A DNA stretch of 64,000 bases from Octopus sinensis (Eukaryota): positions 38,378,001-38,442,000 of the forward strand of contig NC_043015.1 in assembly GCF_006345805.1 (NCBI RefSeq), given 5' to 3'. The position numbers and the translations under genes were made by a program. Positions 4,960 through 55,771 of this stretch are shown here, piece by piece. Under the pieces are notes generated by a model. The model did not search any database and was not told the origin of the DNA. It was given only the letters and a program-made list of their open reading frames with translations. The stretch's first letter is position 1, and each line of letters starts with the position of its first letter.

Positions 4960-7900
4960 ATGTCTGAAAAGAAGTTGTTGGAATACGAAGGATGCAATTT
5001 CTTTCGGCCGAGATTGGTTTTGTCGATATTGAGTGGGAAATCGGTGAGGATAACAAACATACGAAGTCGGGACGATAATCCGGGATTACAAGGTAACATA
5101 TATATATATATATATATATATACACGCACACACAGGCGTATACAAATGTTACGTATACACGCACCTTAGGTAGACACGCATATTACAAGGGTGTTTATAT
5201 ATATATAGAAAGACTTGTGAGTGGATTTGGTAGACGGAAGCTGAAAGAAACCCTTCGTGTATATATATGTATGTTTGTGTGTCTGTGTTTCTCCCCCCTA
5301 GCATCGCTTGACAACCGATGCTGGTGTGTTTACGTCACACGGTTCGACAAAAGAGATCGATAGAATAAGTACTAAGCTTACAAAGAATAAATCGATTTGC
5401 TTGACTAAAAGCGGTGCTCCAGCATGGCCACAGTCTAATGACTAAAACAATATATACACATTCTATGCTGAAGGCTTGATAATTGTTGAGAGATTTCTCT
5501 CAATATGAAACCAATGGTAGCCTTATTAACCTACAAACAAACAAACAAAAAGCGTACACACACACCCACCCACACACGTTGTTATGCCCCATGTTGTTAT
5601 ATGTTCATTTCTTCTCTTCCAGAATTTGAACTCTCTTTCATCTCTTTACTGGAGAAATTGTCAAATGGTTCTAAAGTTGTCATTAACGAGACAGGTAAGC
5701 TTCTTTAAATTAATAACTTTGTGTGTCTAATTAGCATCTTAGTATATTATGTGTTGCAGGAGTGTAATTCTTAATGTGTTGTCTGTCTGCAATTAGTATT
5801 GTGTTACTAATTAATATCTTAAGTAATTGTATATTTATTATGTAAATAATGTTATTGTTTGGCCCCAGGTCAACCTTTTTTCATAATTAACAATCTTTTC
5901 ATTGCGGTTAATATTTAATCATAATTACCATACTTTTAATTATAATTAACAAAAACTATTAAACATATTATAACACATTAATAAACTGTTACTGATATTA
6001 AACCAGTAGAAGTTAATGACTTTTGTGATTTGTGTTTCTGCAGGAACGACCATTCTCTTCCACCCGGGTATGCTCTCTGGAGGAAGCTTCGATCACGAAT
6101 GCAGCATAGGCCGAGCCGTTAGCTATTATATTGAACCCCTCTTTTGTTTGGCTCCCTTCGCAAAGAAACCCCTCAAAGTCGTGTTACGGGGAGTCACCCA
6201 CAATTTAGATGATGCCTCTGTAAGTTCACTCTTTCTTTCATTTAATTTTCTTTTTTAATTAATTAGTTTCAGGAAGACAAGGGTTGGCAGCCATGATGTT
6301 TAGCACACCACACCCCTACCCACTCAGGTTGGTGTGGATGCTGGTCACTTATTCACTTGGCTATCCTTGACCATTCCAGTTCTGATTGCTGCTGTCTTGT
6401 GTTAGACCAGCTGTTGACACCCCCTCCTCTATGTCCGGTGGTCAACTTACAAGAGAAGAAAGCGAGAACTATTCTCTTAATGGACAGTGACATGGAGTGA
6501 GGTGTCTGGTCAAAACTGGGCCACAAATCATCTGGATCGGACAAATATACAGTTGTATCTGTAACAGAATAAATTAGCAGATGAAGGGACAGTTTGTCCC
6601 CCGACTATCGCTTGACAACCGATGTTGGTGTGTTTACGTTCCCATAATTTAGCGGTTCAGCAAAAGAGACCAATAGAATAAGTCCTGGGGTTGACTTGTT
6701 CGACTAACAGCAGTGCTCCAGCATGACCGCAGTCAAATGACTGAAAGAAAGAACATTCTGAGGAATTGTCTCGCTTGTCTTCCTCAAACTTATTCAGATG
6801 ATGATGATGATGAACGATCCTTCCTGCTGTGGGTCGTAGTTTTAAGTTCTTTCCTTTTTACATTAATTACATTGGCATCTCATTCCATTACTGTTTGATT
6901 GATTACTATTTGACTAACGATGGTCTAATTACTGTTCCAGGTCGATCACATGAAGTTCTCCAGTTTACCGGTGCTAAAAAGATTCTTAGGTACAGACGAG
7001 GATCTTGAACTAAAAGTAAGTTTGCAGACTTTTATTTAGATTTTCTTGTATTTTATGAGGAAAGGAAACCCAAGGAGACCTGATATAATGTGGTGAGGGC
7101 TGATGTTAGGACCTTGAGCCTCCTGGGGCTGATGACAAGGGACTGAGAAGGCTAATGCTGTGTGGTTCTTGAGAAGACCTGCCTAATCAGTGCCAAGTTC
7201 TCAAAGCATTGTCTGTCTGTGAATTTATACAGAACTGGGTCTCTCGCCCGATTTCCTTCTCAAGACAGCCTCACCACTTACCTTTCTAACTGCAGATTTT
7301 CCTTGATACCACTAAATTTTCCCGTTTTACGTCAATCTCCATCCTTCATCTTCAATCTTTCCCTTTCATCCCTATCTTACAATGATCGTTCCACCAGGTT
7401 ATCTCTCCTCAACCACCCCACCTCATGCACTATGTCTGCCATTCCCCCTCCTACTCTTTTGGATCCTATCATCCAATCACTTGTCCTCACTCGTTCTCTC
7501 ATCCTTCTTCTGTCTACTCTATCAATATTACTATTCTACTGCTCTGCACACACACCCACTCCCATCCACTATTTCCTACATCAACCCCTCAACACTTACT
7601 CCTCATTTATTTCCCCTCCCCACCTCACCCGTTCTCCGTCTCTCACTCTCCCATACACTTCTACAACCCTAACCCACCCAAATCCCCAGTGTCCCTGCCC
7701 CACCTTTCACTTCTATTCATTCCATACCTCCAGGGGATTATTATTCCAGTTCTATATTTAAGAGATGAGGAATTATTTACATTTGATGGATATTTGTCCT
7801 CATCTTGTTTGTTGTTAACACAACGTTTCAGCTGATATACCCTCCAGCCTTCATCAGGTGTCTTAGGGAAATTTCGAACCTGGGTTCTCATTCCTAAGGT

Positions 7901-10900
7901 ATTTTTTCAATGTTATTATTATTTTTCTGGTCACTGCCTGGAATCAAACTCGGAATCTTGGGGTTAGTAGCCCACACTCTTAACCACTACACCATATGCC
8001 TGTGAAATAATAATAACATTGAAAAATACCTTAGGAATGAGAACCCAGGTTTGAAATTTCCCCAAGACACCTGTTGAAGGCTAGAGGGTATATCAGACGA
8101 AATGTTGTGTTAACAACAAAAAAGATGAGGACAAATATCCACCAAATGTAAATAATGGGATTGTTGTTGTTGTTAAAACAACAGTAAGCTGGCACAATGG
8201 TCAGACTGTTGGAAAAATTCTTTGAAGGCAGTGAGCTGGCAGAATTGTTAGCATGCTGGATGAAATGCTTAGGGGTATTTCACCCATGATTATAGTCTGA
8301 GTACAAATTCCACTGTGGTTGACTTTACCTTTCATCTTTTTGGGGTCAATTAAATAAGTACCAGTGGAACGCTGGGGTCAATGAAATCGACTAGTCCTCC
8401 CTCCCCCAAATTCCAGGTCTTCTGCCTAAAGTAGAAAAGATTTATTATTATTGATTGTCGTCACTGCTGGTGTGTTTGCGTCCCCGTGGCTTGGCAGTTC
8501 AGCAAAGGAGACCGATAGAATGAGTACTAGGCTTACAAAGAATAAATCTTGGGGTCAATTTGCTCAATTATAGATGGTGCTCCAGCATGGCCACAGTCAA
8601 ATGACTCAAACAAGTAAAAGAATAAAAGAGTATATGCATACACACACACACACGCACACAGACATATATATATCACTGTTTTACTATTTCTCCATGAGTC
8701 TTCTTTTCAGAATAGCTTTTCCTGATGGCAAATGGAACTCACAGCCTTCCACAACTACCACTCCCACAAACACCACATCTCCGTACTCATATGTATCTTT
8801 CCTTCTGTCTCTCTCTACCAAATTCTACTCCCAAAGTATTGGTCAATAACAAAAGCCACTTGTCCATGTTGCCACCCTGTGGGATTGAACACAAAACCTC
8901 TTGATCTTGAAGTGAGCTTCCTAACCACACCCCCACTACCTCTAGATAATGCTTATATTTGTTTAATTCTATTCTTTTTTGTAGATAACTCGTCGTGGCC
9001 CGGCTCCTGACGGAGGGGGTGAAGCAGTGTTTTCCTGTCCTTGTCGACAAAAGTTACGACCAATCCAATACACAGACCCTGGAAGGGTGAAGAAGATTCG
9101 TGGAATTGCGTATCCTTTCACTTAGATGGATCAGTTGCTTTCAAGAATACGTGTTCTAGTTCAATACATATGTGTGTGTGTGTATATATATATATATATC
9201 TGTTGATTCACTGAGAAGTGATAAATTACAGAACTCAATACCTAAGTGTAGAACATTCTTTAATACATTATTATAACAGAAAGATTCCTGTTTCCACTAC
9301 TCTGAGTTACATCAGGATTCTGGTCATTCTGCTGCTAAACCAAGCCTACCTCATATATATATCATCATCATCGTTTAACGTTTGTTTTTCATGCTAGCAT
9401 GGGTTGGACAGTTCAACCGGGGTCTGGGAAACCAGGAGGCTGCATCAGGCTCCAGTCTGATCTGGCAGTGTTTCTACAGCTGGATGCCCTTCCTAATGCC
9501 AACCACTCCAAGAGTGTTGTGGGTGCTTTTTACATGCCACCAGCACAGGTGCCTGGGGAGGCTGGCAACGGCCACGTTTGGTTGGTGCTTTTTACGTGCC
9601 ACCTGCACAGGTATCACAACTACAATTTCCATTTGATTTTTTGATGTTGATGTACTTGACTCCTCAAGCACAGCAGATATATATATACACACACACACCA
9701 GCAGTAATACCCATTGTTGCTCGAGTAATTACTTTTACTGTTTCTCGGGAGCTACATTCATCATCTTCATCATTGTTTAACGTCCATTTTTCATGCTAGC
9801 ACAAGTTGAATGGTCTGACTGGGGACTAGCAAGCCAAAAGGCCGCACCAGGCTCCAGTCTGATCTGGCAGTGTTTCTACAGCTGGATGCCCTTCCTAATG
9901 CCAACCACTCCAAGAATGTAGTGGGTGCTTTTTACGTGCCACCAGCACAGGGGCTATTCATATTATTATTATTATGTTATGATATAATATAATTTACTCA
10001 AGACATTTTTTGATTAAGAATATCAATTGGATGGTTTGACTGGGGACTGGCAAATACCTTGTCTTTGGCCAACCAAAGCCTTGTGAGTGGATTTTGGTGG
10101 AGAGAAACTGGAAGTAGCTTGTTGTATAGGAGGGGGTAGCTGGTGTTGGTGTGTTTACATCCCCATAACTTAGTGGTTTTGCAAAAGAAAATGGGAGAAT
10201 AACTATCAGGCTTTAAAAAAATAATTACTGAGGTCAATTGGTTTGACTAAAATTCTTCAAAATGGTGTCCCAGTATGGCCACAGTCTAACGACAGAAACA
10301 AGTAAAAGATATGGAAAAAGAAAAAGATCAATCACTGACTTAAGTTTGTTTCCTTCATTATGGTAATCGTCCTTAACATTGGCCAGTTGGTGCGCCAAAG
10401 TGTCTCCAGGGACACTCAACAGATTAATGGAATCTGCCAAAGACGTCCTTTCAGAGTTCATCCGTGACATTTACATCCATTCCGATCACTGCAAGGGGAA
10501 AGAATGCGGAAAGTAAGTTGAATTTTGATTATTCAGAGTTGGTCTTGTTGTTTAACCCCAGGTCAGCCTCCACGAAACAGCTCTGTCGATCAAAGAATCA
10601 AAGACATTCCAACTGTGACCAACCTTTATTTCACTGAGCTTCAATGCTCTGAGTTCACTTTATCCAATGTTGTACATTGCTAAGCTGATAAAACATGATT
10701 CAAGCAATATCCGGCTGCTTGTGCCACTGAGAGCATTTAGCCCTTGTCCTGTAGCCAGGGGTCCCTATGTTATGTCATACATTCTACACTGAGGTGGGAT
10801 TGAACCTGGAAACAAAGATTTCTAACATTGACACAAGATCACAAATTTGAGGTAGATCTTATAATAACGAGAATAGTTTCCTAATTTATCACAAGGCCAG

Positions 10901-13696
10901 CAATTTTTTAGTGGTTGGGGGTTCGGAGTTAATACATCAACCCCAGTATGTGACTGGTACTTTATTTTATTGATCTGCAGACGGATGAAAGGCAAACTTG
11001 ATGTCTGTAAGATTTGAACTCACTTCATAAAGGAACTGCAAAACATACCACTAAGCATTTTACCCAACATACTAATTACAGGACTCAATACCTAAGTCCC
11101 TGTTAGCTTACTGCTGCTCTAAGAATAATAATAATAATAATGATTTCAAATTTTGCCACAAGGGCAGCAAGTTTGGGGAGGGGGGGTTGATTACATCAAC
11201 CCCAGTAGTTAACTGGTACTTATTTTATCGACCCTGAAACGATGAAAGGCAAAGTCGACCTCGGTGGAATTTAAACAGGTGAAATATTGCTAAGCATTTC
11301 GCCCAGCATGCTAACGATTCTGCCAGCTTGCCACTTTAATAATAATAATAATAGATACATATAGTTTCATCTTTGTTGGATGGAAGAATCAGCATCCATG
11401 ACATTGGCAAGTCTTCTGATGTGATGGTCATGACTATGTTGTTGACTTTCCTCTCTCCCTAGTTATTAAATGTTTGTCTTTCTCCCTTCAGATCACCTGG
11501 ATTTGGTTTGACCCTTGTAGCAGAGACAACAAAAGGGACCTTCCTAGCTGCTGAGGCTATTTCAAACCCTAAAGGATCAGACAAGGGACCATCTGTTGCT
11601 GAAGATGTCGGCAAAAAAGCAGCTTATTTATTATTGGAAGAAATATATCGGGTAAGTAGAGCCTGAATTTATTGATCCTGGGGGATGTGAGGGCTTTCAT
11701 TCTGGTCATTGAGACTGCTGATCAGCGGTCCTGAGTTCAAAGCTTACTTGGGTCACTCTTTTTTCTATGGTGTCCCTTTAATATTGTTTTGTTGAATGTC
11801 TCCCTGATTCCCATTACATTAGTTTCTGAAGCATTGTGTAAAGGAGAAACACACTTTCCCCTGGAGAGGATGCCAGACTAAACTTTACCTATAAAGACAA
11901 TATAAAGAACTGTGAACTGAAAGATAACAAAACACTCGTTAATTTCATAGTGTTGCCACTGCCTATCATTTGCGAACTATGCCCCTCACCGCTAGCCGGA
12001 ATGGTGGCAAACAAAACTATGAACTGCACCACAGTGGTACCTACATTCAGTCAAGTAGACTGGGCTCCCTAATCAGCTCAGCTCATTAAGCCCCCCCCCC
12101 CTCCACTTTTTACTTCAGAGTTCAGTGCTTAGTGACAGTAATGACATTTATTAATTTCCTGGTTGAGCGATTTGGTGTAATTGGGGACATTGCATAAATA
12201 ATTAAAGGATATCTTACTCTGTTTTCCATCATCACCATCCTCATCATTTAACATCCATTTTCCATACCTGTATGGGTTAGATGGCTATAGAGGAACTGGC
12301 AAGACCAGGAACTGCATCAGGTTCCACCATCCATCTCGGCTTGGTTTCTATGGCTCAATGCCCTTTCTAATGTCGACCACTTTGCAGAGTGGTCAAGATG
12401 ATTTATACATGGCACCATCGCCAGTGCTTTCACTCGGCACCATAACTAGTGTTCTTTTACATGGCACCAGCTTAGACTTGGTCACCAAGTACTTGTATCA
12501 AGAATAAAAACAATTTGATGTAAACAAAACTCTAGCAATTTCTTTTTTAAAACTTTTTCCTTTGCAGGGTGGCTGTGTAGATTCTCTTAACCAAAGTATG
12601 GCGGCATTATTTATGGTTCTTGGCTCTCAGGATGTGTCAAAACTTCAAATTGGACAACTCACTCCATACACGTAATGATGGAAATTTTTTCTTTTTTTCT
12701 TAACATCTATTATTCCGTTTTCTAATTGCTACAAAAACAATATCTCCACTCATAGACATTCTAAAATCTGTAAGTACATTTTAGTCTAGACTTTGCTAAT
12801 GAGGCCTAATGATACAGGAACATATAATGTTATTACCATAGCTACCAAAAATCGAACCCATTCTAGACTACATCTCTATTTAAATTTCAGAGTTGTCTCT
12901 CTTGCTTTACTTAGTAACCATTGTCATTAACACTAAATATGTTTTCTTGTCATTAACCCTGCTATGTCAGTTGATACCAAAATTATCTTTGCTCCAACTA
13001 CATTAAGCATGTTAATCCGTTTTGTGGCATATTCTTTGGCTAGTTTCATATTCTCACAATACTGCCAGCTGTTTACAGACACCCCATTATTTATCATTGA
13101 ATGCAACAGAAACAGATTTTGATGAAACACTGCTTCTGTTGCATTTATCATGATCGATGTCCTTGCTCCTTGCTGGAATAAAGGACACTGCTTGTATGAC
13201 AGGGATACTCGTTTACAACCACCACACAATGTTAAGACAGGAGATAATAGTGCATTCATCGACGTTCACATGTGACAGGCTTCTTTCAGTTTCCATCTAT
13301 CTCTTCCACTTTGATCAGCCTGGGCTATGAGTGAAGGCATCCAAAGTGCTACTGCATGGCACCTTGGCTAAGTTAGTACTGAGTACATGGTGCTCCAGCA
13401 TGGCCACAGTCTGTTGACTGAAACAACTAAAGGAGATATACACCATAGACATGCTTCCTCTTGTCTCTTCCGTTTATTCCAACCAAAAATATTTCAACAT
13501 TTTTTTATTTTTATTTTTTTCCTCAAGGATCGGCGTGATGAGATTAATCAGAGATTTCTTCAAAGTCTTGTTTAAAGTGGAAGAAGCAAAAGAGGAAGAC
13601 AGTTACGATGAAGAAGAATTAAAGACAGGTGACAAAAGGCTCTTATTGACCTGTGTTGGGGTCACTTACACAAATGTTAGCAAACCTATTTTATAG
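4960..13696 (+). CDS. RCL1: RNA 3'-terminal phosphate cyclase-like protein (18S rRNA processing), 9 exons, 379 aa
   Basis: Exons 4960-5092, 5623-5694, 6044-6219, 6941-7015, 8985-9109, 10387-10512, 11492-11651, 12568-12671, 13528-13696 total 1140 nt. All introns are GT-AG with consistent phases. Motifs include YEGCNFFRPRLVLSILSGKSVRI, RRGPAPDGGGE, SPGFGLTLVAET and EEIYRGGCVDS. Confidence 0.96.
5215..5450 (+). mobile_element. tRNA-head SINE family 'B' (representative partial copy)
   Basis: The shared body 'gtgagtggatttggtagacggaaactgaaagaagccc...gcggtgctccagcatggcc.cagtcaaatgactgaaac' recurs at roughly 6595-6750+, 8465-8630+, 10060-10310+, 21235-21365+, 21935-22190-, 24505-24790-, 38065-38380-, 40900-41245+, 45918-46255+ and 57440-57740+. 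Confidence 0.85.
7772..8156. repeat. ~150-bp inverted repeat in RCL1 intron 4, each arm carrying a hammerhead-like motif
   Basis: Arms 7772-7924 and 8005-8156 are reverse complements with a few mismatches. The ~80-bp spacer reads as a tRNA-like SINE head on the - strand. Confidence 0.9.
7817..7862 (-). ncRNA. Minimal type I hammerhead ribozyme motif (Penelope-type)
   Basis: Minus strand reads GACAC-CUGAUGA-aGGCUG..CAGCU-GAAA-CG-UU-GUGUU. Stem I is GACAC/GUGUU, stem II is GGCUG/CAGCU, and stem III is reduced to the palindrome ACGU. Confidence 0.7.
9110..10386 (+). other. U12-type (minor spliceosome) GT-AG intron 5 of RCL1
   Basis: 5' splice site GTATCCTTTC at 9110 and branch point TCCTTAAC at 10370-10377, 9 nt before the intron end (CAG at 10384-10386). 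There is no polypyrimidine tract. Splicing here restores the frame (…RGIA/WCAKVSP…). Confidence 0.92.
9363..9670 (-). mobile_element. SINE/short retroposon family 'C' with a (GAT)n tail (representative copy)
   Basis: The shared 'catcatcgtttaacgtc..ttccatgctagcatgggttggac...tacagctggatgcccttcctaa.gccaaccactcc' recurs at roughly 9760-9950, 12240-12480, 27980-28280, 31270-32100, 48200-48470, 48485-48680 and 57980-58135. Opposite-orientation copies lie at 32830-33085 and 53190-53645. Confidence 0.8.
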
Positions 13697-40527: not shown

Positions 40528-40558
<31 letters not shown>

Positions 40559-41699: not shown

Positions 41700-42054
41700 T
41701 TTCTGCCAGCTCGCCGCCTTTATTATCACTGTTGGCAATAAAAATCAATTAACTATAAAAAGGGGGTAAAAAAAAGTGCACCTAATTTGCGATCAAATCC
41801 GACACTGATTTCTGTTCCTTGTTTTTCTTTTTCCCTCAATCCCTGTTTTCTATTTCTCGCCCTGTCACAACTCCGTCAAGGTCAGCTTATGCTTTTTTTA
41901 CATGTTGATCAAGATAAAAAACCAATACAAGAGAGGCACTTCATTTATCAATGCTACTTGTTGACCTTTCTCTCTCACATGTTACCACTGAATAATTAAA
42001 ACAGAAACATTTATCTCTTGCTCTCTCCCTCTCCTTCTCTCTGTCTATATCTAT

Positions 42055-42098
<44 letters not shown>

Positions 42099-43027: not shown

Positions 43028-43213
43028 TTTCAATCAAACCTTGCTAATTAGACTAATCACATCTATACTTCACACAAACTCTTTTTTAAAAATCATTGCT
43101 TCATTTGCTCATACAAATTTTTTTTTATTTCTACAGGATAATTTTTAAAGTTGTGACCCATATAGCATCATTGAAATTAGGTTACCTGTTGGTCCCCCCT
43201 CTCTCTCTCTCTC

Positions 43214-43284
<71 letters not shown>

Positions 43285-45545
43285 GTAGAGATTACAGTAT
43301 CCAGTTGTAATACAAAGTAAATTATTCAAAAATCATGATTATTTTTAATCTCTGCTCAATCTTCCATTGGTGGTATGTGCATGTTAAGGGCGGCGAGCTG
43401 GCAGAATCGTTAGCACGCCGGGCGAAATGCTTAGCAGTATTTCGTCTGCCGCTACGTTCTGAGTTCAAATTCCGCCAAGGTCGACTTTGTCTTTCATCCT
43501 TTTGGGGTCGATAAATTAAGTACCAGTTATGCACTGGGGTTGATGTAATCAATTTAATTCGTTTGTCTGTCCTTGTTTGTCCTCTCTGTGTTTAGCTCCT
43601 TGTGGGTAGTAAAGAAATAGGTATGTGCATGTTAGACGCAATGAAGATGATTTTGTAGGTTTTTCTTTTGGAAAGCCTGCGTCCAGTAGCTATCTCCAGT
43701 ATTTTGTTGCGTGATGTGTTTTTTGTAGCATGTTATTAAAGCCCTAAGATCCCGCCCAAACGAACTACACCTTCTAAGGCTCCTGGCTGTGAACATAAGC
43801 GCCAGTAAAAGGTTATAACTCTCCATGGGAAGGCACAACTGCTGGATATGTTCCGGGAAGGTAAAAGTTATGCTGCAGTAGGTCGCTGTTATGTTCTCAA
43901 CGAAAGCACTGAAGCGTACAACTTGAGGGAAATTCCTCTCTCTTTCTGTTATATATGCATAAATACGGACGTAGTAGATAACAGCTAGTCCTCGGCCACC
44001 TTTTTGGACCCTGTTGTGTCCACTACTCTGATTGGTTGGTATTGGCACCAATTTGTCTCTTGCTCTATTGCCTGCCAATATGCAACCCAACCAATCGCAG
44101 TCTTCAAATAAGGTCACGTGAGACGGTCTCTTCTAAATCTCAGTTTGCACAAACTGCTCACTATAAAACTCTAGCGACACATCGAGTCGGTGTCTTTCGG
44201 TTCCAGACCTTTTGAAGTCTAGCCACTGACCACACAGGACACAGCCAGTTCTAGCGACAACACAACAGAAGCCACATAGAGATCCATCAACATCGTCCAG
44301 CAGCATTCAGTGGCCTCCATCACTGTTGCCAGCATTCTTCCTAACATCAACATCATCTCTCTACGTACACAGCAACAAGCAACGCTCGCACAGGTTTCAA
44401 CACGACACTGTTTGTGAATCACTTCACCATGGTTAGCAGCAAAATACAACCTGCGAGAACTTCCTGTATCAAGTGACCGGCAACAGCATAGTAGCCACAA
44501 CTTCTTGTACGACACGTACCGCACAGGCTCTGCTTCTTCCCCACAACTTCTTGGTGCAGCACTTCATCTATCGTTTACCTTGACTACGAACTGATATTTA
44601 TCATCTTTGTGTCTGAACATTCTTCTAGCGTCATATTATAGACTCTTTCAATGCTCTGTACTTAATACACACACATACACATTATGTATACATGACGGCC
44701 TGTCTATTATTATGTATATATGACGCACACACAGACACACATTAACCTATCAATAAAATCTTCTCTTAAACATTCTACCCAGTTGTGTCTCTCTTTTCCT
44801 TCTGCCATTCATACGCATTTAGTCTCTTCATATATATTGTATCAACCGTGTAATGTCCAAAGGAGCCATTCTCGTCACCTTCACTTCGCTTGATCGTTTA
44901 CAGCACCATACGCTACATAAAGGAGAACAAGGTGACAATCAGGACTACCATAGCAATAAGTTTCTGTGAAAGGCCAAAAAAATAACGATAGTGAGAAATA
45001 AACACATTGTCTGGACGAAATCTGCCTTGGGAGTGTAGATCAGTGACTGCAAGAAAAAACACCCCCTTCAGGGGTAACATCACCCGTGAGAAAACAGAAT
45101 TTATACCAACAGTTCAACAGAAGAGGAGCAGAAAGCATTGAAGAACCGTAACCAGAACCAAAACCATTGACAAAACCGTAACTAAAACCATAATGTAAAC
45201 CATTGACAGCACCAGAGCCCAAAGATTTTCAAACCAGTAAGGGATACTTTGACTGTTCCCAGAAATGGTTTTAAATAAAGTGTGTTTCCCTACATGGAGA
45301 GACAGCATCAGCCAACAAAGAAGCCATCGAGAAGTACCCCGAGACCTTCAGGCAGATCATCGAGGACAAGGGATACAAATCGAAACAGGTTTACAATATG
45401 GACAAGACTGGCTTGTTCTGGAAGAAGATGCCTTCCAGAACATACATCATAAAGGATGAAGCCAGATCCCCAGGATTTAAGGCACTGAAAGACAGAGTGA
45501 TGCTAATTACGTGTGGTAATGCTGCTGGCTTCATGATGAAACCAT
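42816..45545 (+). mobile_element. Fragmented Tigger/pogo DNA transposon with nested insertions
   Basis: TA|CAGTGTCCCCC..TTATTCGCGG TIR-like start. The N-terminal HTH 'KRQ*KVITLHGKAQLLDMFREGKSYAAVGRCYVLNEST' lies at about 43790-43915. The DDE region 'QVYNMDKTGLFWKKMPSRTYI..PGFKALKDRVMLITCGNAAG' lies at about 45380-45545. Confidence 0.8.
43388..43619 (+). mobile_element. Full-length tRNA-derived SINE family 'A' with a 15-bp target-site duplication
   Basis: A-box-like tggcagaatcg, B-box gagttcaaattc and central 'tttcatccttttggggtcgataaattaagtaccag'. The TSD ggtatgtgcatgtta lies at 43372-43386 and 43620-43634. Other copies occur at roughly 3835-4015-, 8227-8400+, 11185-11335-, 57757-57960+, 61930-62130- and 62565-62731-. 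Confidence 0.9.
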
Positions 45546-46479
45546 GTAATAACATCTACGTATTTTTGCAAATGGAATATTCAAAATATTCCCATTCTTC
45601 AAAACAAATGAATAAAATGAAAGGTAATAGAAAAATACTTGACAAGAATTCTGAATCCAAATCTAAACTGGAAATAGGAAAGACTGCTGCTACAAGCAAC
45701 TACTCATATACCAATTACCTTATGAAAATATGTGTGTCTGAGAAGCTGAAAACAGTGAAAGCATTTAACACAAAATATTCCTTCCATTAAGTCTGTATCA
45801 GTATTTATTTAGATAGTTTTTCATATGATTAATAATTTCTAATTACAGAAAATCTTTCTTCAGATATTGTGACTGTATCAAGAATTGTTTATAAAATATT
45901 CTTAGAATAATTATATAGGCACGGGTGTGGCTATGTGGTAAAAATCTTGCTTCCCAACCACATAGTTCCGGGTTCAGTCCCACTGTGTGGCACCTTGAGT
46001 AGATTTGGTAGACAGAAACTGAAAGAAGCCCATCATGTGTATGTGTGTGTGTTTGTCCACCTACCATTGCTTGACTACTGATGCTGGTGTGTTTATGTCT
46101 CCATAACTTAGCGGTTCAGCAAAAGAGACCGATAGAATAAGCACTACGCTTACAAAGAATAAGTCCTGGGGTTGATTTCTTTGACTAAAACCTTTAAGGT
46201 GGTACTCTAGCATGGCCACAGTCAAATAACTGAAACTAGTAATGGAATAAAAGAAAGATATATATATATATATATGCATAAATATACATACATACGTATC
46301 TATATGCATGTATCTGTCTATCTGTATATGCATGCATACACACACTCTTTCTCTCTTGTGTATATATGTGTCTGCCTGTTTGTGCGCATGTGTCTGCACA
46401 CACAAATGCACATGCATATGCTATATATAAATGTTTCTTTGCATTTTTTTCTAAATGTAATTTTGTTTTCAGAAACAAG

Positions 46480-48112
46480 ATGTCTGTATCTGTTGCCCTG
46501 AAGAATGTCTGTCAAGGAATTGGTGAGGCACCTCACTGGGTGGAAAGTACTAAATCATTGCTGTTTGTTGATGAAGAATTTGGAGGCCTCCACAAGTGGA
46601 ACAGCATTGATAACACACATACCAAGTTTAATGCTGGTATGTATGTTTGTATATCTATCAACATGGGTGAGCAGAAAATTTCATAGACTGAAGGAGTGAT
46701 GCTAGAGCTGTGAAATCTTGCATGCATTCATTTCAACCTTTCTTATTAATAACTCCATTGTTTCTTTCCAGGTAAACTGACATCTGAATGTTGAAAGAAT
46801 ACTTCAAAAGTAATTAGTTGCAACTTCCATTGATGATGATGGTAATGATCAATATATCATGCTATCATATGATATAAGACCTCTTATACGTTATTATATG
46901 ATATGAACCATTTAAAATCTATTGAAAGATATCAATATCTTATCACATGAAGCTTGTGTTATATCTTTTACATCACAGTTCGTATCTTCTCTTGTGTATT
47001 TTACCAGATAAAAATGTCAGCTTCATCATACCTCGTGAATCTGGTGGTTATGTCGTATCATATAAGACCCATCTCGCTGATTTTGACTGGGAGAGTCGAC
47101 AGGTGAAACCATTCCTTGATGTGGAACCAGATAAACCAGGAAACGACTTCAATGATGGCAAATGTGACAGTTATGGCAGGCTTGTGGCAGGTGAGCATTT
47201 CATTGTTTTTTTTTTTGTGTAGGAAACTGTCTCTCATAGTTCGTATTTTCAGGGTTGTTGTTAAACCCTGGGCCATCTCTTACAGGATTGTAACTTCAGA
47301 GTTTCATCAGGGGCCCTACCCCCAATGTACCTAACTTTCACTCTGAAGGTACTGACCATTGATCTATTTTGGGCAGTTTTGGTATTTGCAATGGCCAGTC
47401 TATGAGGTTTCCTGGTCAGAATGAAATCAATCTACCTTGTGTGTTTGCTGGAATGGTAGGTGGTGGGGTGCCTGGTCGCTTTCTGGAAGTGGGTTGTTGC
47501 AAATTGTTTGATGAGTTCCATAACAGAACTCCAAGAGTCTTACATCCTCACCATATTCATTCTCCTCACGGACATCACAGTAGCCATCGTGTTTTTGACC
47601 AATATGTCCTGTAAAGTCACCAGGTATGATGACTGTCAAAGGTTGTCATAGAAACACTTCTGTTTGTATATTTATACAAATCTTCATGTATGGTGAGTGT
47701 TCCATAGATGCTTGGCATCTTGTGCCATTTCTGACTTTCCATCCATGACCTCTCAGATGACTATTCAGTCTTGCTGTTTTGTAACTGTGCATATCGAGTG
47801 CATATATATATGCCAGACAGAGCTGGCAACCGGCCACGAACGGACGGTGCTTTTACGTGTCACCGGCATGGGGGCCAGCCGAGGCTGGCAACGGACGCGA
47901 ACGGATGGTGCTTTTACGTGCCACCGACACGGTTGCCAGACAGAGCTGGCAAACGGCCACGAGCGGACGGTGCTTTTACGTGTCACCGGCCAGTTTATGG
48001 GTAATCCCATAAACTGGTTTTCCCTAATTTAAAAATAAATGCTACGATACACCTTAGAGTGTGCTTCTTCTTCAGATTTATGCTTTCTACAAACGGTAAA
48101 TATGTATATATA

Positions 48113-48170
<58 letters not shown>

Positions 48171-51100
48171 ATCATCATCAACATCATCATCATCAACATC
48201 ATCATCATCATTATCATTTAACATCTGCTTTCCATGCTGGCAAGGGTTAAACGGTTGAACTGGGGGTCTTGGAAGCCAGGAGGCTGCACCAGGCTCCAGT
48301 CTGATCTGGCATGGTTTCTACAGCTTGATGCCCTTCCTAACGCCAACCACTGATTGAGTGAAGTGAGTGCTTTTTACATGCCACCGGTACGGGTATCACA
48401 ACAACAATTTCCGTTTGATTTTCATTTTGATGTTGATGTACTTGACTCAGTAAGTCTCCTCAAGCACAGTATATATATATAATCATCATCATCATCGGAT
48501 AATGTCCGTTTTTCATGCTGACATGGTTTGGACGGTTTAACTGAGGACTGGGAATCCAGGAGGCTGCACCAGGCTCCAGTCTGATCTGGCATGGTTTCTA
48601 TGGCTGGATGCCCTTCTTAATGCCAACCACTCCAAGAGTGTAGAGGGTGCTTTTTACATGCCACCAGCACAAATGCCCATGCATGAATGGTGCTTATGTA
48701 TAGGAGTGTGAGTATATGCACTCATATGTATATATATATATGTTGCATTGTGGGTACGCACCCACACCCATGTGGGTATATGTGTAGACTGTGTTATATT
48801 ACATAATCTCCGAAGAGGCCTTGTGATATTTTTGTTAATGTCTCATTTATATCTATATATTGACCAACCATAAAGGGCTAATATTGGTAAAATGAGACAT
48901 AATTATCGACATGGCCGAAACAGCTGTAAGATCTAATTTATACTTATATTTATATTTACTTGTATTTATATTCTTTTTTATATATATTCTACTTATTATA
49001 CAACATTACTCTCTTATGTACACTTTTTTATGTACATTCCTTTATGTACACTGATTTGTTCTGCTTTTTATATTTAACCCTACAGTCTCTTATGTGGTGA
49101 TTTAATAAAGTATGTGATTGAGTATTATCTGGTAATTGATATTTGATTCAGAAGTATTTCTCTATTTTCTTATCTTGTATATATATATATATATATATAT
49201 ACATACATTAATATCGAACAATGGAAATGAGTGCTCAATACTGCATTGGTGGATGTAATTGTTTTGTTTGTTTTTTTGTGAATTAAGGTATACACAACAT
49301 CTGGAATCATTCAGAACCAAAAACAAGAAACATGCAATATTCCTGTCAAATATTATATGGATATTGAAAGGAAGTAGAATAAGTAACCGCCAAATAGAAT
49401 GGAACATCATTGCTAAAGTTAAACAATACGGAGGACGGCCTGCCAAATGTGAACTCTGCATTAGTGAAAAGTTAAACATTATACAATCCACAGATAACGT
49501 CCTAAACATTAGAGAGGAAACCTTCTCTCCCTGCATACAAAAACAATATTTTACACTCAAATATTTCAAAGAAGAGCCTCTCTATGTGAGGTTAACCTTG
49601 CCATAATAGCCCATTTCCTAAACCTAAACACACAAACTTTGCCCCAATGACGAATTACCTCAGTGCACAGGTATAAGAACACCGTGCCCAGGACCAAAAC
49701 AAAATAATGCAAACAAATTGATCACAAAAGAAATTTGTCCAAAAGATAAATTCAAGGGAAACAAACACCCAAAAAAATGCTACCCAAGAGTAATGTCCCT
49801 TGATTCATTGTTTTATTTATGCAAATTTATGAGAAATCCCGTAAATGAAGTGAGACTCATCAGAAATATTAAATTTCTAAATATCTCATAGAGATATGTA
49901 CGGTGGTGGGGCGATAGAATGGTTGTATACTGTCAATTTAACGTGACAGTAGGGGATTACACCACCGCTGTTTAGCCCTAGGAAGCATCGACGCTTCCTG
50001 ATGGCTTTGACACATTTTTCCCTGTGTCCTTATATATTTACGAAGGGGAGACAAACACCCCCAGCAGCCAGGCCTGCATCTAGAGACACACATGTTTCAG
50101 GATCTTTGCCCATCATCAGTCTAGAGTAGCAGAAGCCCGCCAGCCGCAGATATCTGTCTCGATTTCGCAAATATATATATCTAATTTTCAGTGAAGTTTA
50201 TTCAGGGCTTCTGCTACTCTAGACCGATGATGGGCAAAGATCCTGATACATGCGTGTCTCTAGATGCAGGCCTGGCTGCTAGGGGTATTTGTCTCCCCTT
50301 CGTAAATATATAAGGACACAGGAAAAAATGTGTCGAAGTGAGGCTGTTTTCCAGAATGGTGGTGAACACCTTCCTCCATATGATTGGCTTGGAAAATTGT
50401 TAACACACCAGGATACTTTCCTACTTTACTTAACATGAAACCACACACACACACACACTCACACACACACTCACACACTCTCACACACACACACATATGT
50501 AGATATATATATCTTGTAAATGCTTTGGGATGCATTATCAGTTTGTTTCTGAAGTGTTGCAGGGTTAAGGGAGTTTCAGTATTAGACCTCTTCGTCTAAT
50601 TTTTTGCTTAACCCCAAGTCAGCTCTGGCCTAGCTCCCCTTTCATTGTCAAGTGTGCACAAATTCTGAAATAATAGAATGTAATGTAAAGGAAATTTGGC
50701 TGCTATTTCTAGCTTTTAGACTTGTCACTAGATTTCAATGTGGACAGAATAACATACTCTAACTTTTCTCCCATTAGGTACCATGAAAGCAGTTACAGGC
50801 ACATCTAAAATGGATGGAGCTGGACAGCTATATCGGATTGATAAAGATCTCTCAGTTAAAGCCATCAAAGACAAGATCAATATATCTAATGGCATGACAT
50901 GGACATCAGATGACAAAACCATGTTCTACACCCATTCTCTTCCAAGAAAAGTGTTTTCTTATGACTATGATATTTCTACAGGAGAAATCGGTAAGTATTG
51001 TCAGCCTTAATTATTTTCTTAATTACTAACTTAACGATCCAAGCAGAATTTCAACTCAGAATCTAAAATCTTGCTTTGGAATAACAAAAACGCATTTGGT

Positions 51101-53116
51101 CTGCTGTTCTTCCAGTTTTGTGACAAATATTTAATAATATTTAATTCAATTCAATCAAATTTATTGTTTTTGTATTTACAAAGATTTATTCTTGATACAA
51201 TTTTCATTTGCTTCTCCAGTTGGTGTACAATCTCGTTAGAATAAGATTTAGTCTTGTATTTGTAATTTGTGAGATGTTGGAAAGCTTTAACTAAGATTGT
51301 CCATGCGATCAGAAGACAAATTTCTTAGTAACAGTTTAAAACATGGAATCCAAAAGGCAATGAATTTAATTAACCCTTCCAGTGTTTTCATGAAAATATT
51401 TCATTTTAACAATAAATATTCTCCGTTTCCTTCTTTAGCCAGAGAACAAGTGGTTATCGATTTTGAAGGCAAAGAACTCCATGAATTTGGGGTACCAGAT
51501 GGAATGACAATTGATTTAAATGACAAAATATGGTTGGCTTGTTATTACAGTAGTCAAGTATTCCAGATTGACCCAGAAACAGGTACAGAAAATATTATTT
51601 CTTTACCCAAAAGCCTTGCTAGATGAGACAAGAGAGTTCTCCCTTTCTTGTAGCCATTTTCCCTACCAAAATTTCCTGGCAAACCTCCTTCAAATCATAT
51701 TCTGTTATCCACACTGTGTCTGTATAAAAGATGAGGTGGTCACAGCTGGAACAGCTTTGATCGTAGATAGATGTGACTGATCCGGGCTTATCAACAACTG
51801 ATTATTCGTTCTCCTGATATACTTTGCAAGCAACACATCCATGTGGAGGAGGCAAGGGACAAACATGGCAGCTGATTAAGAGAGAGACTGGTGTACATCA
51901 GATGCCTGTCATCATCATCATCATCAACATCACTTCTGCCACCACCATCACCACCACTTCTGCCTGCCACCACCACCCCTGCCACTCATTACAGCCATCA
52001 TCTTCATTGTTTTGTCTGGATTTCAGTAAAAAGTGTTTATTACACACATGTGAGTGAGAACACTGAGAGATATTTTTGGTATCTAACATATGTCAGATAC
52101 TGCGAGCGCTGCTTCTGATTGGTCAATCCATGGTGATGACCCGAGGTCACGGTGACAGCGCTGCTTCTGATTGGTCAATTCATGGTGATGACCCGCGGTC
52201 ACGGTGACGGCACTACTTTTGTCATTCATAAGTTACAACTAAACGTGAAGAATTTAGTTATTGGGTTAATAAAATATGCTCGTTTATTCGTGTGTAATAA
52301 ATAAAATACCAAACTCATTCCCTATGGATACCGTATTTATTACAACGAGTGGCTTGTAAACGTATCTAACTCACTTTCGCTCGTTAGATACGATTACAAG
52401 CCACTCGTTGTAATAAATACGGTATCCATAGGGAACTCGTTTGGTATTCTCTATTTGTTAATACCAAAATAAAAAGGTATTTAGTATGACTGCTAGGTGA
52501 ACTTAGTAGTTGGCTATGTCTACCTTGGATAAACACTTCATATATAATAAGCACGGATGGCTGAGTGGATAGAGTCACAGACTACCAGCAGTGAGGTGAG
52601 TGGTTCACATCCCAGTGCTAGTAGCAGATTGTGCTTGTGGCCATGGCACTAAACTTTCAAATGGCCAAGTCCACCTAGTTTGCAAAGGGATACCACATGA
52701 GAGGAGCAACTTAGTACCGTGAGCAGTGGTAGAACTGTAACTGTGTAAAGTTTTTCATGAACATGCAGTGGAGAGTTCAAATTTCATTGAGGGCAGTAAA
52801 GGGCAGAGTGCAGGAAGGTACTTCTGATGGACCAGCACACAGTACAATACAGGACAGAAATAGGGAAGGTAATTACGTTCGTGCTAATGAGGGTAATTAG
52901 GAGAGAAATACAAAAGATAATATTAGAGCAATAAATGTGAGGATGTTACTAGGTTTCTTGACTGTGACCATGCTGGAGCACCGCCATCAGTTGAACAAAT
53001 TGACCCAAGGAATTATTCTTTGTAAGCCTTTTACTCATTCTATCAGTCTCTTGTGTCGAGCAGCTAAGTTACAGGAATGTAAATACACCAACATCAGTTG
53101 TGGGAGGACAAATACA

Positions 53117-53161
<45 letters not shown>

Positions 53162-54104
53162 ACACACACACACACACATACACACACACATTGAATTCGA
53201 AATCGAACCAAATTCGTCGACTGGCACCCATGCCAACCTCCCTTCATTGGACACTAAACTCTGCCTGCGAAGACCTGTTGAGGCAAGTGAAATCGAAATT
53301 GAACCAAATTTGATGTCTGGCACCCGTGCCAGTGGAGCGCTGACAGCTCCATCCGAGCGGGGTCACTGCCAGAGCAGCTGTCTGGCTTCTGTGCCAGTGA
53401 CACGTAAAATGCACCATTTGAGCTTGGCCGTTGCCAGTACCGCCTGACTGGCCCTCGTGCTGGTGGCACGTAAAAGCACCCACTACACTCTCGGAGTGGT
53501 TGGCGTTAGGAAGGGCATCAAGCTGTAGAAACTCTGCCAGATCAGATTGGAGCCTGGTGTAGCCATCTGGTTCACCAGTCCTCAGTCAAATCGTCCAAAC
53601 CATGCTAGCATGGAAGGCAGACAGTAAAATGATGATGATGATGATACATATATATATATATATATGTATATACGATGGGCTTCTTTTAGTTTCCATTTAT
53701 GAAATCCACTCACAAGGCTTTGGTCAGTGCAAGGCTATAGTAGAAGACACTTGCCCAAGGTGCTATGCAGTAGGACTGAACCTGCAACCATATGGTTGAG
53801 AAGCAAGCTTCTTACCATGCAGCCACTCCTGTACCAATGTTTTTCAATTTTGGACAATTCTTTTTACTTTTTCCCATTTTGAAAACTATTTTCAGGTAAA
53901 ATTCTGAGTTCAATCAAGTTTCCTGTCAGTCGAGTCACTTCCTGTTGTTTCGGAGGTCCAAACTACGATGAACTGTACGTGACATCAAGGGCCAATAACT
54001 TAACAGAAAATCAGTTGCAAAATGAAGAGAAACTTGCTGGAAGTGTGTTCAAGGTTACCGAATTGGGGGCAAAGGGTAAAGCAGCTGCTGTCTTTCAGGG
54101 ATAG
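46480..54104 (+). CDS. RGN: Regucalcin/SMP-30 copy 3, 301 aa, intact
   Basis: Exons 46480-46636, 47008-47190, 50778-50990, 51439-51582, 53896-54104 total 906 nt, with the same exon sizes as copy 2. Motifs GEAPHW, NDFNDGKCD, ISNGMTW, PDGMTID and TSCCFGGPNYDELYVTS are present. Confidence 0.95.
47380..47640 (-). mobile_element. LINE (RTE-like) APE endonuclease fragment
   Basis: VIIPGDFTGHIGQ…EYGEDVRLLEFC resembles the 'GDFNGHVG…GERLLEFC' motif. Confidence 0.6.
48806..48932 (+). ncRNA. Hammerhead-like motif (CCGAAGA core, ~90-nt stem II insert) upstream of a Penelope-like endonuclease fragment
   Basis: AUCU-CCGAAGA-GGCC…GGCC-GAAA-CAGCUG-UA-AGAU. Confidence 0.55.
49280..49575 (+). mobile_element. 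Penelope-like element GIY-YIG endonuclease C-terminal fragment
   Basis: RYTQHLESFR…LSNIIWILK…IEWNII…AKCELCISEKLNII…VLNIREETFSPC matches the PLE pattern 'RY..H..SF…LS.YIW.LK…W.I…C.LC..EK..I…LN.R.E…C' as I recall it. Confidence 0.75.
50005..50338. repeat. ~135-bp inverted repeat in RGN copy 3 intron 2, each arm carrying a hammerhead motif
   Basis: Arms 50005-50138 and 50205-50338 are reverse complements with a few mismatches. Confidence 0.9.
50079..50125 (-). ncRNA. Type I hammerhead ribozyme motif
   Basis: Minus strand reads UCUAGA-CUGAUGA-uGGGcaaagaUCCu-GAAA-CAuguGUG-UC-UCUAGA, with a 6-bp stem I and a GUC triplet. The mirror copy at 50218-50264 (+) has a mutated core (CCGAUGA/GAUA). Confidence 0.7.
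52105..52208. repeat. 52-bp tandem repeat x2 containing CCAAT-type boxes
   Basis: 'agcgctgcttctgattggtcaat.catggtgatgacccg.ggtcacggtgac' occurs twice. Confidence 0.8.
52305..52448. repeat. ~65-bp-arm hairpin (foldback) in RGN copy 3 intron 4
   Basis: aataccaaac..ttccctatggataccgtatttattacaacgagtggcttgtaa.cgtatctaac, a 12-nt loop, then the reverse complement. Confidence 0.9.
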
Positions 54105-54981
54105 TCTACACCTCTCTCCAAGTATATATGGTAACTGAAAGACCACAGATATTATAATAATTATGTTTTATCACAGTTATATTTTATAAAATTAATAATG
54201 AAATAAATGTAAATTAAAATAAAATAAATTTTTTTGTATTCTTTCTCCTTTATGAGTGCATGTGTGGCTGTGTGGAAGATGGACCAAATCGTTTCAGTTT
54301 CAATCCCATTGCATGTATCTTCTGCTACATAACTGGTTGATGACCAATGCTTTGGGAACGAAGATTCATGGACAGGTAATGTGCAAAAGCTATTGTACTT
54401 ACAGGTGTGTTTGCATTTACTCCTCTTAAAAGCTGGTTTTGTTGTTTGAGTTCCATAACTTAGTAGTTTGACAAATAGAAATCAATAAAATACGTACTAA
54501 ATCACTGAAATTAATATGCTTGACTAAATTTTGAAGGCAATACAACAGCAAAGTCGTGGTCCATTGAATGAAACCAATAAAAGCACATTGGTCCATATTA
54601 ATCCTTTCATAGTATTACGTCCAGTGTTGTATTGGAAGATATCAGCGGAAGATATTTACAAACCCTATTTCACTGGGATCCCTGAAAACTGAGTTAAGAT
54701 CCTAAAGGGGTTGTGACAAGGGGTTTTAGAATGGATGGACTGATCCTAGGACTGAGTGATGGGTTGTGTCCTAGAAATCAAATAATTTCTCCCTTTTTTT
54801 TTTGTTATTTAACCAGTGATCGCTATGGTGGGAGAGGTTTGTCCTTTCTAGACAAACCGGTCGTAGAAACTATATGAAAACTATGTGTAGGCAAGTCTGT
54901 GTGTAGTAAATGGCACGTTTGGATATAAAACAGTTTTCTACATTTCTTTTTCACCTTTTTCAATTTTAAAACCAATTTCAG

Positions 54982-55719: not shown

Positions 55720-55771
55720 GTCTCCGATGAAGGGATATTATTAATTAATATCCAAGAAACAGCTGTAAGAC
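55720..55771 (+). ncRNA. Hammerhead-like motif (duplicate of 40205-40254)
   Basis: GUCU-CCGAUGA-agGGAUAUU..AAUAUCCaa-GAAA-CAGCUG-UA-AGAC. Confidence 0.55.

What the first reader, a model, noticed from the sequence alone, without database searches (positions are those of the whole stretch)
7817..55771. Dispersed, structurally diverse hammerhead ribozyme motifs across the window
About nine motifs share stemI-C(U/C)GANGA-stemII-GAAA-stemIII-UH-stemI: 7817-, 8066+, 24967-, 26432-, 29156-, 40205+, 48806+, 50079-/50218+ and 55720+. Their stem sequences are largely unrelated, so they represent at least five or six families. All copies with a canonical CUGANGA/GAAA core are on the - strand, antisense to the + strand genes. 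Every + strand copy has a core change (CCGA, CUGUUGA or GAUA). That pattern fits purging of active self-cleavers from host pre-mRNAs, though the sample is small. They may mark Penelope-like elements or non-autonomous retrozymes that make circular RNAs.
Basis: partly seen in the sequence, partly recalled or inferred. Interest (0 to 1): 0.75.

Follow-up and report, generated by a model that had tools for sequence, protein, structure and literature searches.

The report
Penelope retrotransposon ends carrying hammerhead ribozymes
The self-cutting-RNA motifs scattered through this animal genome window are real and sit in the tail ends of very abundant repeats, two of them traced to protein-coding Penelope-type jumping genes and the rest likely of the same kind; their odd core letters are mostly family traits rather than damage, single copies are likely almost inactive, and introns of other genes showed no significant sign that the host purges them from its own transcripts.

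Summary
The motifs are real type I hammerhead folds (6 descriptor hits against 0.31 in shuffles). All ten listed are present, plus one missed, but they are only about eight independent insertions. They are 3' ends of repeat families with hundreds to thousands of copies. Family A (7817/8066) is the end repeat of a protein-coding Penelope/Poseidon-type element, family F (48806) of a Hydra-type element; back-to-back pairs, tails and (TA)n ends fit Penelope-like insertion. The purge reading fails: CCGA is the family core in B, D and F, the 'canonical' 50079 copy is likely CpG decay from CCGA, and a complete U3-A8 motif sits sense in intron 1 of spliced RCL1. In 1.4 Mb of dynein/myosin spans intact motifs were 13 sense:25 antisense (p=0.07), decayed 27:25; a modest bias stays open, strong purging does not. 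Cleavage is untested. Octopus Hydra hammerheads are in print, and this scan noted U4C cores, long stems and a tRNA-headed end repeat before on other DNA. Residual oddity: 21 of 29 family A copies start at a tRNA-type A/B-box head.

The parts
5471..5524 (+).
   Evidence: fold; family of >=40 scored copies, 396 candidates; core TTGATAA in 10 of 11 other copies; intron from spliced contigs of runs X9, X14
7742..8006 (-). Family A end repeat (pLTR): tRNA-type A/B-box head (about 8000-7931), (AAT)n, hammerhead, 3' end and about 30-nt tail; antisense in an RCL1 intron (7016-8984)
   Evidence: intron
7817..7862 (-). Minimal type I hammerhead, canonical CUGAUGA/GAAA, palindromic AACGUU stem III (dimer type)
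8022..8157 (+). Inverted 5'-truncated partner of family A; hammerhead 8066-8111 with decayed core CUGUUGA; predicted to be buried in a long hairpin with the left arm
   Evidence: fold
24967..25174 (-). Family H hammerhead: CUGAAGA core, 11-bp base of stem II, 183-nt domain II that includes an about 90-nt insertion, weak 3-bp stem I; antisense in a regucalcin intron
   Evidence: exon positions
26432..26539 (-). Family E hammerhead: 6-bp stem I, CUGAGGA, 77-nt domain II with a poorly paired base, palindromic ACAAUUGU stem III; antisense in a regucalcin intron; no close relative among my loci
28665..28850 (+). Fragment similar to the reverse transcriptase of Hydra-type proteins
   Evidence: tblastn to P0022, E=7e-6
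29019..29206 (-). Family C: canonical hammerhead 29156-29206 followed by a 3' end that runs into (TA)n and resembles the 3' end of family F; 2.2 kb downstream of a regucalcin stop codon
40205..40256 (+). Family D hammerhead, CCGAUGA core (family trait), stem I weakened to 3 bp; about 0.66 kb downstream of a regucalcin stop codon
48695..49180 (+). Family F: young (mostly 96-98% identical copies), 5'-truncated 3' end of a Hydra-type element, ending in (TA)n; sense in regucalcin intron 47189-50775
   Evidence: intron spliced in run X14
48806..48932 (+). Hammerhead with CCGAAGA core (family trait), 100-nt stem II hairpin, palindromic ACAGCUGU stem III
   Evidence: (z=-2.3)
49259..49606 (+). Separate fragment: C-terminal endonuclease region of an old Hydra-type element, next to the same (TA)n
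   Evidence: (11,859 candidates); motif comparison with the Craig et al. supplement
49859..50204 (-). Family B element (about 345 nt, partial tandems in other copies); hammerhead 50079-50125 with CUGAUGA, which departs from the family's CCGAUGA
   Evidence: (1,775 candidates)
50205..50338 (+). Inverted truncated partner of family B; hammerhead 50218-50264 with family core CCGAUGA and a decayed GAUA
55720..55771 (+). Family D hammerhead, duplicate of 40205 within the 39471-40912/55005-56381 duplication
4928..12672 (+). Host gene RCL1-like (RTC family), spliced
23137..54120 (+). Three tandem regucalcin/SMP-30 host genes (about 23137-26965, 33160-39545, 46472-54120)

Best explanation
The motifs are type I hammerhead folds in the 3' ends of about eight high-copy repeat families, two shown to be ends of protein-coding Penelope-like retrotransposons and the others likely mobilised by the same machinery, and single copies are likely close to inert in host pre-mRNA. 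Shown: family A continues upstream into a Penelope/Poseidon-type reverse transcriptase and GIY-YIG frame, family F lies 1.9 kb behind a Hydra-type endonuclease stop codon, copies are 5'-truncated, often back-to-back, with tails or (TA)n ends, and CCGA (U4C) and UUGA..A (U3-A8) are family cores. Inferred: the element's protein nicks AT-rich DNA and copies the RNA from near its 3' end, so mostly the ribozyme-bearing end is left behind; the palindromic, unstable stem III would need a partner copy (or the element's protein) to cleave, and back-to-back pairs would bury the motif in a long hairpin. Host genes would therefore tolerate them in either orientation, with at most weak selection against intact sense copies.
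For: Descriptor excess over shuffles. Copy numbers: 1,775, 1,728, 1,095 and 396 first-look candidates for B, F, A, I. Family A: copies L262, L263, L271, L282 run 0.75-1.3 kb upstream into RT and endonuclease frames, RVT_1 at E=1.6e-9, motifs matching the Penelope/Poseidon rows of the Craig et al. supplement. Family F: L240 holds an endonuclease frame with a CxCX5C linker ending 1,902 nt before the hammerhead, and L241/L018 share the sequence from that stop onward; full-length relatives hit it at E=5e-15 and resemble the Hydra rows of the supplement. Cores: B CCGA in all 12 descriptor rows outside the window and its duplicate (10 distinct copies); F 22 CCGAAGA, 3 CCAAAGA, 1 CTGAAGA of 26; D 3 of 6 CCGATGA; I 10 of 11 TTGATAA. 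Perfect stem III palindromes in 13 of 35 real against 3 of 23 shuffled hits. 21 of 27 F copies read through the predicted cut by more than 10 nt. Orientation: canonical+U3-A8 9 sense:16 antisense (p=0.23), decayed 27:25, Fisher intact vs decayed p=0.13; 8 of 21 gene spans hold an intact sense motif. Literature: minimal PLE hammerheads show no activity as monomers and low activity as dimers (PMC4209133); the anole PAc hammerhead cleaves only with the PLE protein and is dispensable for insertion in vitro (PMC11167929).
Against: No cleavage assay. For B, C, D, E, H and I no copy joined to a coding frame was found, so their Penelope link rests on insertion anatomy. Intact motifs of all core types lean antisense (13:25, p=0.073; sense fraction CI 0.20-0.51), and the one 12-copy tandem array met lies antisense. 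The sample is 16 dynein and 5 myosin spans inferred from Pfam hits, probably many of them tissue-restricted. Two of 27 F copies begin within 2-3 nt of the predicted cut, a weak hint of cleavage in vivo. Pfam did not name the endonuclease fragments; clade labels come from motif comparison by eye.
Confidence: 0.82

Rival explanations
1. Partial purge: intact hammerheads do cut host pre-mRNA at some rate, so selection removes or disables sense-intronic copies, giving a modest (up to about twofold) antisense excess.
For: Every intact class leans antisense or is even (canonical 8:12, U3-A8 1:4, A6U 1:6, U4C 3:3), pooled 13:25, p=0.073, while decayed copies are 27:25. The 491-nt array, the only arrangement that could form cis dimers, is antisense. 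Xenopus retrozymes are depleted from introns (10.64898/2026.07.22.740005; strand not examined there).
Against: Not significant; solo canonical copies 8:11 (p=0.65). The strongest lean is in the A6U class, expected to be the least active (recalled mutational data). One of four SINE controls showed a similar lean by itself (97:133, p=0.02). Intact sense motifs lie in spliced introns of RCL1 and regucalcin. The raw 7:23 signal (p=0.005) came from one array counted 12 times.
Confidence: 0.3
2. The window's motifs mark non-LTR retrozymes: tandem units that self-cleave and circularise.
For: Family B has an about 345-nt unit with partial head-to-tail repeats in other copies; a 491-nt unit in 11.6 tandem copies with a canonical core exists elsewhere in this genome.
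Against: No window copy is a tandem array; A and F are ends of coding elements; F copies show no circular permutation. No circular RNA data.
Confidence: 0.15
3. Family A is an independent tRNA-derived SINE with a hammerhead, like schistosome SM-alpha.
For: A- and B-box-like motifs in 25 and 28 of 29 heads, 21 of 29 copies start within 0-8 nt of the head, no TTTT in the short unit; head followed by the body in 24 of 29 loci.
Against: The head is the direct continuation of a PLE open reading frame whose stop codon lies just after the A box, so it is part of the element's own end repeat. Rfam gives no tRNA match; ARAGORN calls it only at a threshold that also gave many unrelated calls.
Confidence: 0.12
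4. The motifs are chance matches or host regulatory ribozymes.
For: Rfam finds none; isolated folds of the short motifs are not unusually stable (z -0.1 to -2.1).
Against: Excess over shuffles; eight of the families or motifs were checked and all but E have relatives elsewhere in the genome, conserved around the motif and unrelated in flanks.
Confidence: 0.03

Closest known systems
Minimal type I hammerheads of metazoan Penelope-like elements (Cervera and De la Pena 2014, PMC4209133; read parts 1-2 of 4)
   Same: Type I, short palindromic or absent stem III, 4-6 bp stem I, unpaired base before stem II, many families per genome, mostly single truncated copies, pairs 100-700 bp apart on opposite strands, U3-A8 core variant as a family trait
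   Different: The parts read describe no U4C families and stems II of 7-8 bp, not 77-105 nt hairpins
Hydra clade of PLEs, including Hydra-1_Obim (Craig et al. 2021, PMC8557442; read passages, section 11, supplement rows from Files S1, S2 and alignments)
   Same: C-terminal endonuclease with CxCX5C linker, (TA)n insertion, hammerhead near the 3' end; the published octopus motif has the same acca-a-tggt stem III as 5471
   Different: Family F has a 3' untranslated part of about 2.3 kb, a CCGAAGA core and a 100-nt stem II; my search of the supplement showed no CCGA or TTGATAA core among the first hits in the File S2 table (first five places per term)
Penelope/Poseidon clade, PAc of the green anole (Frangieh et al. 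2024, PMC11167929; read abstract and main text)
   Same: RT + GIY-YIG frame, end repeat with hammerhead, optional tail of about 30 nt, AT-rich targets
   Different: In family A the hammerhead lies about 140 nt after the stop codon and the repeat begins with tRNA-type A/B boxes, which the text read does not describe for PAc
Schistosome SM-alpha / Sj-alpha SINE-like elements (as reviewed in PMC6765202; passages)
   Same: Polymerase III-type promoter followed by a hammerhead
   Different: Family A is the end of a coding PLE and inserts as single or inverted copies, not tandem arrays
Non-LTR retrozymes (Cervera and de la Pena 2020, PMC7229834, passages; Li et al. 2026 preprint, part 1 of 5 and passages)
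   Same: Short non-coding units with a type I hammerhead; fits family B loosely and the 491-nt array outside the window well
   Different: No tandem array in the window; circular RNA untested
U4C natural core variant (Perreault et al. 2011, PMC3088659; passages)
   Same: Same core change; reported to lower activity in vitro yet permit viroid infectivity; U10.1-U11.1 mismatch as in family B also reported
   Different: There a rare viroid variant; here the core of several families with on the order of a thousand copies each

Membership tests
Type I hammerhead | Core CUGANGA / GAAA / UH joined by three helices, open ends on stem I | tested here: met
   canonical core in 7817, 24967, 26432, 29156, 50079; known variants U4C and U3-A8 in the others; decayed in 8066, 50218
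Type I hammerhead | Excess over chance | tested here: met
Type I hammerhead | Match to Rfam hammerhead models | tested here: not met
   no hammerhead family at gathering score or E<=10
Type I hammerhead | Site-specific self-cleavage | not testable with these tools
   only contigs were available; genomic footprint weak
Penelope/Poseidon PLE (family A) | Single frame with RT and C-terminal GIY-YIG upstream of the end repeat | tested here: met
   all four long copies seen are broken by stops or frameshifts
Penelope/Poseidon PLE (family A) | 5'-truncated, inverted partner copy and optional tail | tested here: met
Penelope/Poseidon PLE (family A) | Placement in the clade by RT phylogeny | not tested
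   motif comparison only
Hydra clade PLE (family F) | C-terminal endonuclease with CxCX5C linker | tested here: met
   L240; definition
Hydra clade PLE (family F) | (TA)n insertion and hammerhead near the 3' end | tested here: met
Hydra clade PLE (family F) | RT domain with DKT and RWK motifs in the same element | tested here: inconclusive
   no F copy reaching the RT was found; relatives P0022, P0068, P0073 carry DKT and RW
PLE (families B, C, D, E, H, I) | Joined to a PLE coding frame | tested here: inconclusive
   none found with Hydra-type queries; inverted pairs seen for B, C, I
Non-LTR retrozyme | Two or more tandem units each with a complete hammerhead | tested here: not met
   no window copy; met only by the 491-nt array at G000:C1:32.654-32.659 Mb
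Non-LTR retrozyme | Monomeric circular RNA | not testable with these tools
   contigs cannot separate circles from tandem DNA
tRNA-derived SINE (family A) | A and B boxes at tRNA spacing | tested here: met
   25 and 28 of 29 copies; box consensus recalled, not from a call
tRNA-derived SINE (family A) | Homology to a tRNA | tested here: inconclusive
   Rfam none; ARAGORN only at relaxed threshold
tRNA-derived SINE (family A) | Head independent of any coding element | tested here: not met
   head continues the PLE frame

The most novel reading that the evidence does not exclude
The end repeat of a Penelope/Poseidon element (family A) carries its own tRNA-type RNA polymerase III promoter, overlapping the stop codon, and makes a short hammerhead RNA that the element's protein copies into thousands of SINE-like insertions; and several independent families have fixed a weakened U4C core and very long stem II, making ribozymes that would cut only when switched on by a partner copy or the element's protein, which is how they could colonise host introns in both orientations.
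Probability: 0.3. Interest if true: 0.55.

Novelty: new member of a known kind. Interest (0 to 1): 0.3.

Why it matters
As it stands this is an ordinary but instructive result: a cephalopod-type genome holds tens of hammerhead folds per megabase (36 raw descriptor hits per Mb in the sample, one array included) that Rfam misses, they are retroelement debris, and strand patterns read from one window mislead unless family consensus and copy independence are known. If the U4C and long-stem families prove switchable, or the family A promoter proves to be polymerase III, they give natural test cases for the open question of what PLE hammerheads do and for how a SINE can arise from a PLE's own end repeat.

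Tried and rejected
Rfam at gathering score and E<=10: no hammerhead. First descriptor required a closed stem II base and loop 3 and found nothing. Raw orientation count 7:23, p=0.005, rejected because 12 of 23 are one array. One search gave 35:47 after I dropped two families and weak singletons by hand; one search repeated it without hand-picking (hits covering under 60% of a seed were dropped). Idea that 24967 and 26432 are permuted hammerheads: rejected, both are type I with long domain II. Idea that F is a fixed 486-nt element, that the endonuclease fragment at 49259 belongs to it, or that these are Neptune-type: rejected. Idea that A is a stand-alone SINE: rejected. Cleavage footprint in F: 2 of 27 copies start at the cut, 4 more within about 7 nt by BLAST but two of these ambiguous in TA repeats; about 0.1 ends per base nearby, so weak. 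Word-index protein searches for longer relatives found none. Sequencing runs: no RNA holder listed on record. Pfam did not name the endonuclease fragments. The Lunse et al. 2017 paper on dimer cleavage was not held (title seen only in a reference list). The orientation sample could not be enlarged beyond 1.4 Mb. Literature searches that found no paper on octopus hammerhead orientation, U4C in PLEs, or a polymerase III promoter in a PLE end repeat; the library lacks most subscription journals, Repbase/Dfam entries and bioRxiv supplements, any of which may bear on these claims.


Full report
Setting. The window is G000:C19:38378001-38442000 of a 2.72-Gb animal assembly. It looks like an octopus (repeat types recalled; earlier scan notes say the same; not tested). 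Host genes are all on +: an RCL1-like gene, spliced in two coded runs whose RNA status is the tool's guess (exons 4928-5089, one ending 5691, 6041-6219, 6941-7015, 8985-9109, 10387-10512, 11492-11650, 12567-12672), and three tandem regucalcin genes; the intron 47189-50775 is spliced in run X14.

Observation. All ten listed motifs exist. A strict descriptor gives 3 hits (7817, 29156, 50079, all -) against 0.00-0.08 in 25 shuffles; allowing long stem II and the CCGA and U3-A8 cores gives 6 against 0.31, with 0 of 200 shuffles reaching 6 (two of the six are one duplicated weak hit). 26432 and 24967 have canonical cores with 77- and 183-nt domains II, the second swollen by an insertion. An eleventh motif, 5471-5524(+), was missed. 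Rfam sees none. Two pairs are inverted repeats and one pair is a segmental duplicate, leaving about eight insertions.

What they belong to. Searches of the genome gave 1,775 (B), 1,728 (F), 1,095 (A) and 396 (I) first-look candidates, 40 scored each; C, D and H have relatives among my loci, E has none. Family A: of 29 loci found with the head alone, 24 have the hammerhead body behind it and four run 0.75-1.3 kb upstream into a reverse transcriptase and GIY-YIG frame (RVT_1 E=1.6e-9) whose motifs match the Penelope/Poseidon rows of the Craig et al. supplement. Family F: copies are 5'-truncated at scattered points and mostly share a 3' end at (TA)n, some with an about 190-nt extension; in L240 an endonuclease frame with a CxCX5C linker ends 1,902 nt before the hammerhead, and the copy in L241 shares the sequence from that point, which fits the Hydra clade as defined in PMC8557442 section 11. 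Family B is an about 345-nt unit with partial tandems, inverted partners and an optional extension; no coding donor was found. Inverted 5'-truncated partners and tails are the published PLE signature.

Core letters. B has CCGA in all 12 descriptor rows outside the window and its duplicate (10 distinct copies), although the query carried CUGA; the 50079 copy also differs from the family at a second CpG, so its canonical look is likely CpG decay (inference). F has CCGAAGA in 22 of 26 copies, D CCGATGA in 3 of 6 with the rest one or two CpG-type changes away, I TTGATAA in 10 of 11. U4C is known from a viroid as a weaker but viable core (PMC3088659) and U3-A8 as a PLE family variant (PMC4209133). 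True decay is seen only in 8066 and 50218, both the short arms of inverted pairs, which are predicted to pair into long hairpins that bury the motif.

Orientation test. I defined 16 dynein and 5 myosin spans from Pfam exon hits and read 1.4 Mb inside them. The raw canonical count was 7 sense:23 antisense (p=0.005), but 12 of the 23 are one 491-nt tandem array; collapsed it is 7:12 (p=0.36) and stays non-significant at five stringencies. With family-based search, 107 places collapse to 90: canonical 8:12, U3-A8 1:4, U4C 3:3, A6U 1:6, decayed 27:25; all intact 13:25 (p=0.073, sense fraction 0.20-0.51), Fisher against decayed p=0.13; 8 of the 21 spans carry an intact sense canonical or U3-A8 motif. 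Four SINE controls gave 109:111, 97:133 (p=0.02), 84:69 and 85:96. In the window itself, 5471 is sense in RCL1 intron 1 and the young F copy is sense in a spliced regucalcin intron. Strong purging is excluded; a modest bias is not. Limits: small n, spans inferred, probably many tissue-restricted genes, intactness judged by descriptor and not by activity.

Mechanism. Shown: anatomy, family cores, link to coding frames for A and F, read-through of the predicted cut in 21 of 27 F copies. From the literature: single minimal PLE hammerheads are inactive and dimers weak in vitro; the anole PAc hammerhead cleaves only with the element's protein, its mutation does not affect insertion, and reverse transcription starts at two internal sites that explain the tail. 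Inferred: reverse transcription from near the 3' end with frequent truncation leaves ribozyme-bearing stubs; palindromic stem III (13 of 35 real against 3 of 23 shuffled hits perfectly palindromic) needs a partner, so solitary intronic copies would be nearly silent and tolerated in both orientations. Against: 2 of 27 F copies begin at the cut, and the antisense lean above.

The odd part. The family A end repeat begins with A- and B-box-like motifs (25 and 28 of 29; consensus recalled), the element's stop codon falls just after the A box, 21 of 29 copies start 0-8 nt before the head against 8 that go further, and the short unit has no TTTT in the copy checked. The query demanded a whole head, so starts inside the head could not be seen. 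This fits a transcription start at a tRNA-type promoter, but tRNA homology was not confirmed and polymerase III use is untested. One search found no paper on this. An earlier scan note on another genome (e1-8669850) reported the same design and prompted my test.

Verdict. Real motifs, known kind: PLE hammerheads are described as massive in metazoans (PMC4209133) and an octopus Hydra hammerhead is tabulated in PMC8557442 File S2. The scan has noted U4C cores, long stems and Hydra links in this genome before and an unproven orientation bias in a mussel. The purge hypothesis, the interesting part of the finding, is not supported by its own evidence and not significant in a larger sample. Interest 0.3.

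Papers seen: PMC4209133 parts 1-2 of 4; PMC8557442 passages, section 11, supplement search rows; PMC11167929 abstract and main text; PMC3088659, PMC6765202, PMC7229834, PMC6962438 passages; 10.64898/2026.07.22.740005 part 1 of 5 and passages; others as search listings only.

Noticed in passing
L106 region, G000:C1:about 32,653,640-32,659,350: 491-nt unit in 11.6 tandem copies, 99% alike, each with a canonical hammerhead (8-bp stem I, 68-nt domain II, palindromic stem III), ending in (TA)n, antisense in a dynein span: a retrozyme-like array.
   Followed up: partly
L043-L182 (e.g. six dynein/myosin hits); L237:6112-6147: A very common family has an A6U core (CUGUAGA/CUGUUGA) as its shared trait, with a sister group carrying CCGACGA; one copy lies 0.7 kb behind a PLE-like frame in L237.
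   Followed up: partly
L246:7664-8034(-): Endonuclease end 63% identical to the window's 49259 fragment is followed about 190 nt later by a canonical hammerhead of another family.
   Followed up: partly
G000 small contigs such as C8702, C12461, C12462, C9183, C2502: Many compact dynein, myosin and RTC genes with very short interruptions on unplaced contigs, unlike the chromosomes: likely a co-sequenced small-genome eukaryote.
   Followed up: no
window about 42025-57000 and G000:C19:+20,967 nt: The third regucalcin gene region recurs 21 kb downstream with 100% identity at three probes: very recent duplication or assembly artefact.
   Followed up: no
window 23137-54120 and G000:C19:38.40-38.52 Mb: Cluster of about eight regucalcin/SMP-30 genes in both orientations; the first copy in the window appears frameshifted in its third matched exon.
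   Followed up: no
window 28991-29110: Two near-identical 3' ends face each other across one (TA)n tract (98% inverted repeat), both resembling the family F 3' end.
   Followed up: partly
window 16649-19177(-), 19391-20400(-), 45275-45790(+): Decayed LINE (RVT_1, E=1e-9), mariner-like transposase (HTH_48) and a pogo/Tigger-like fragment (the last by recalled resemblance).
   Followed up: no
window 900-2960: About 2 kb of CT/CA microsatellite with a 644-nt higher-order repeat.
   Followed up: no
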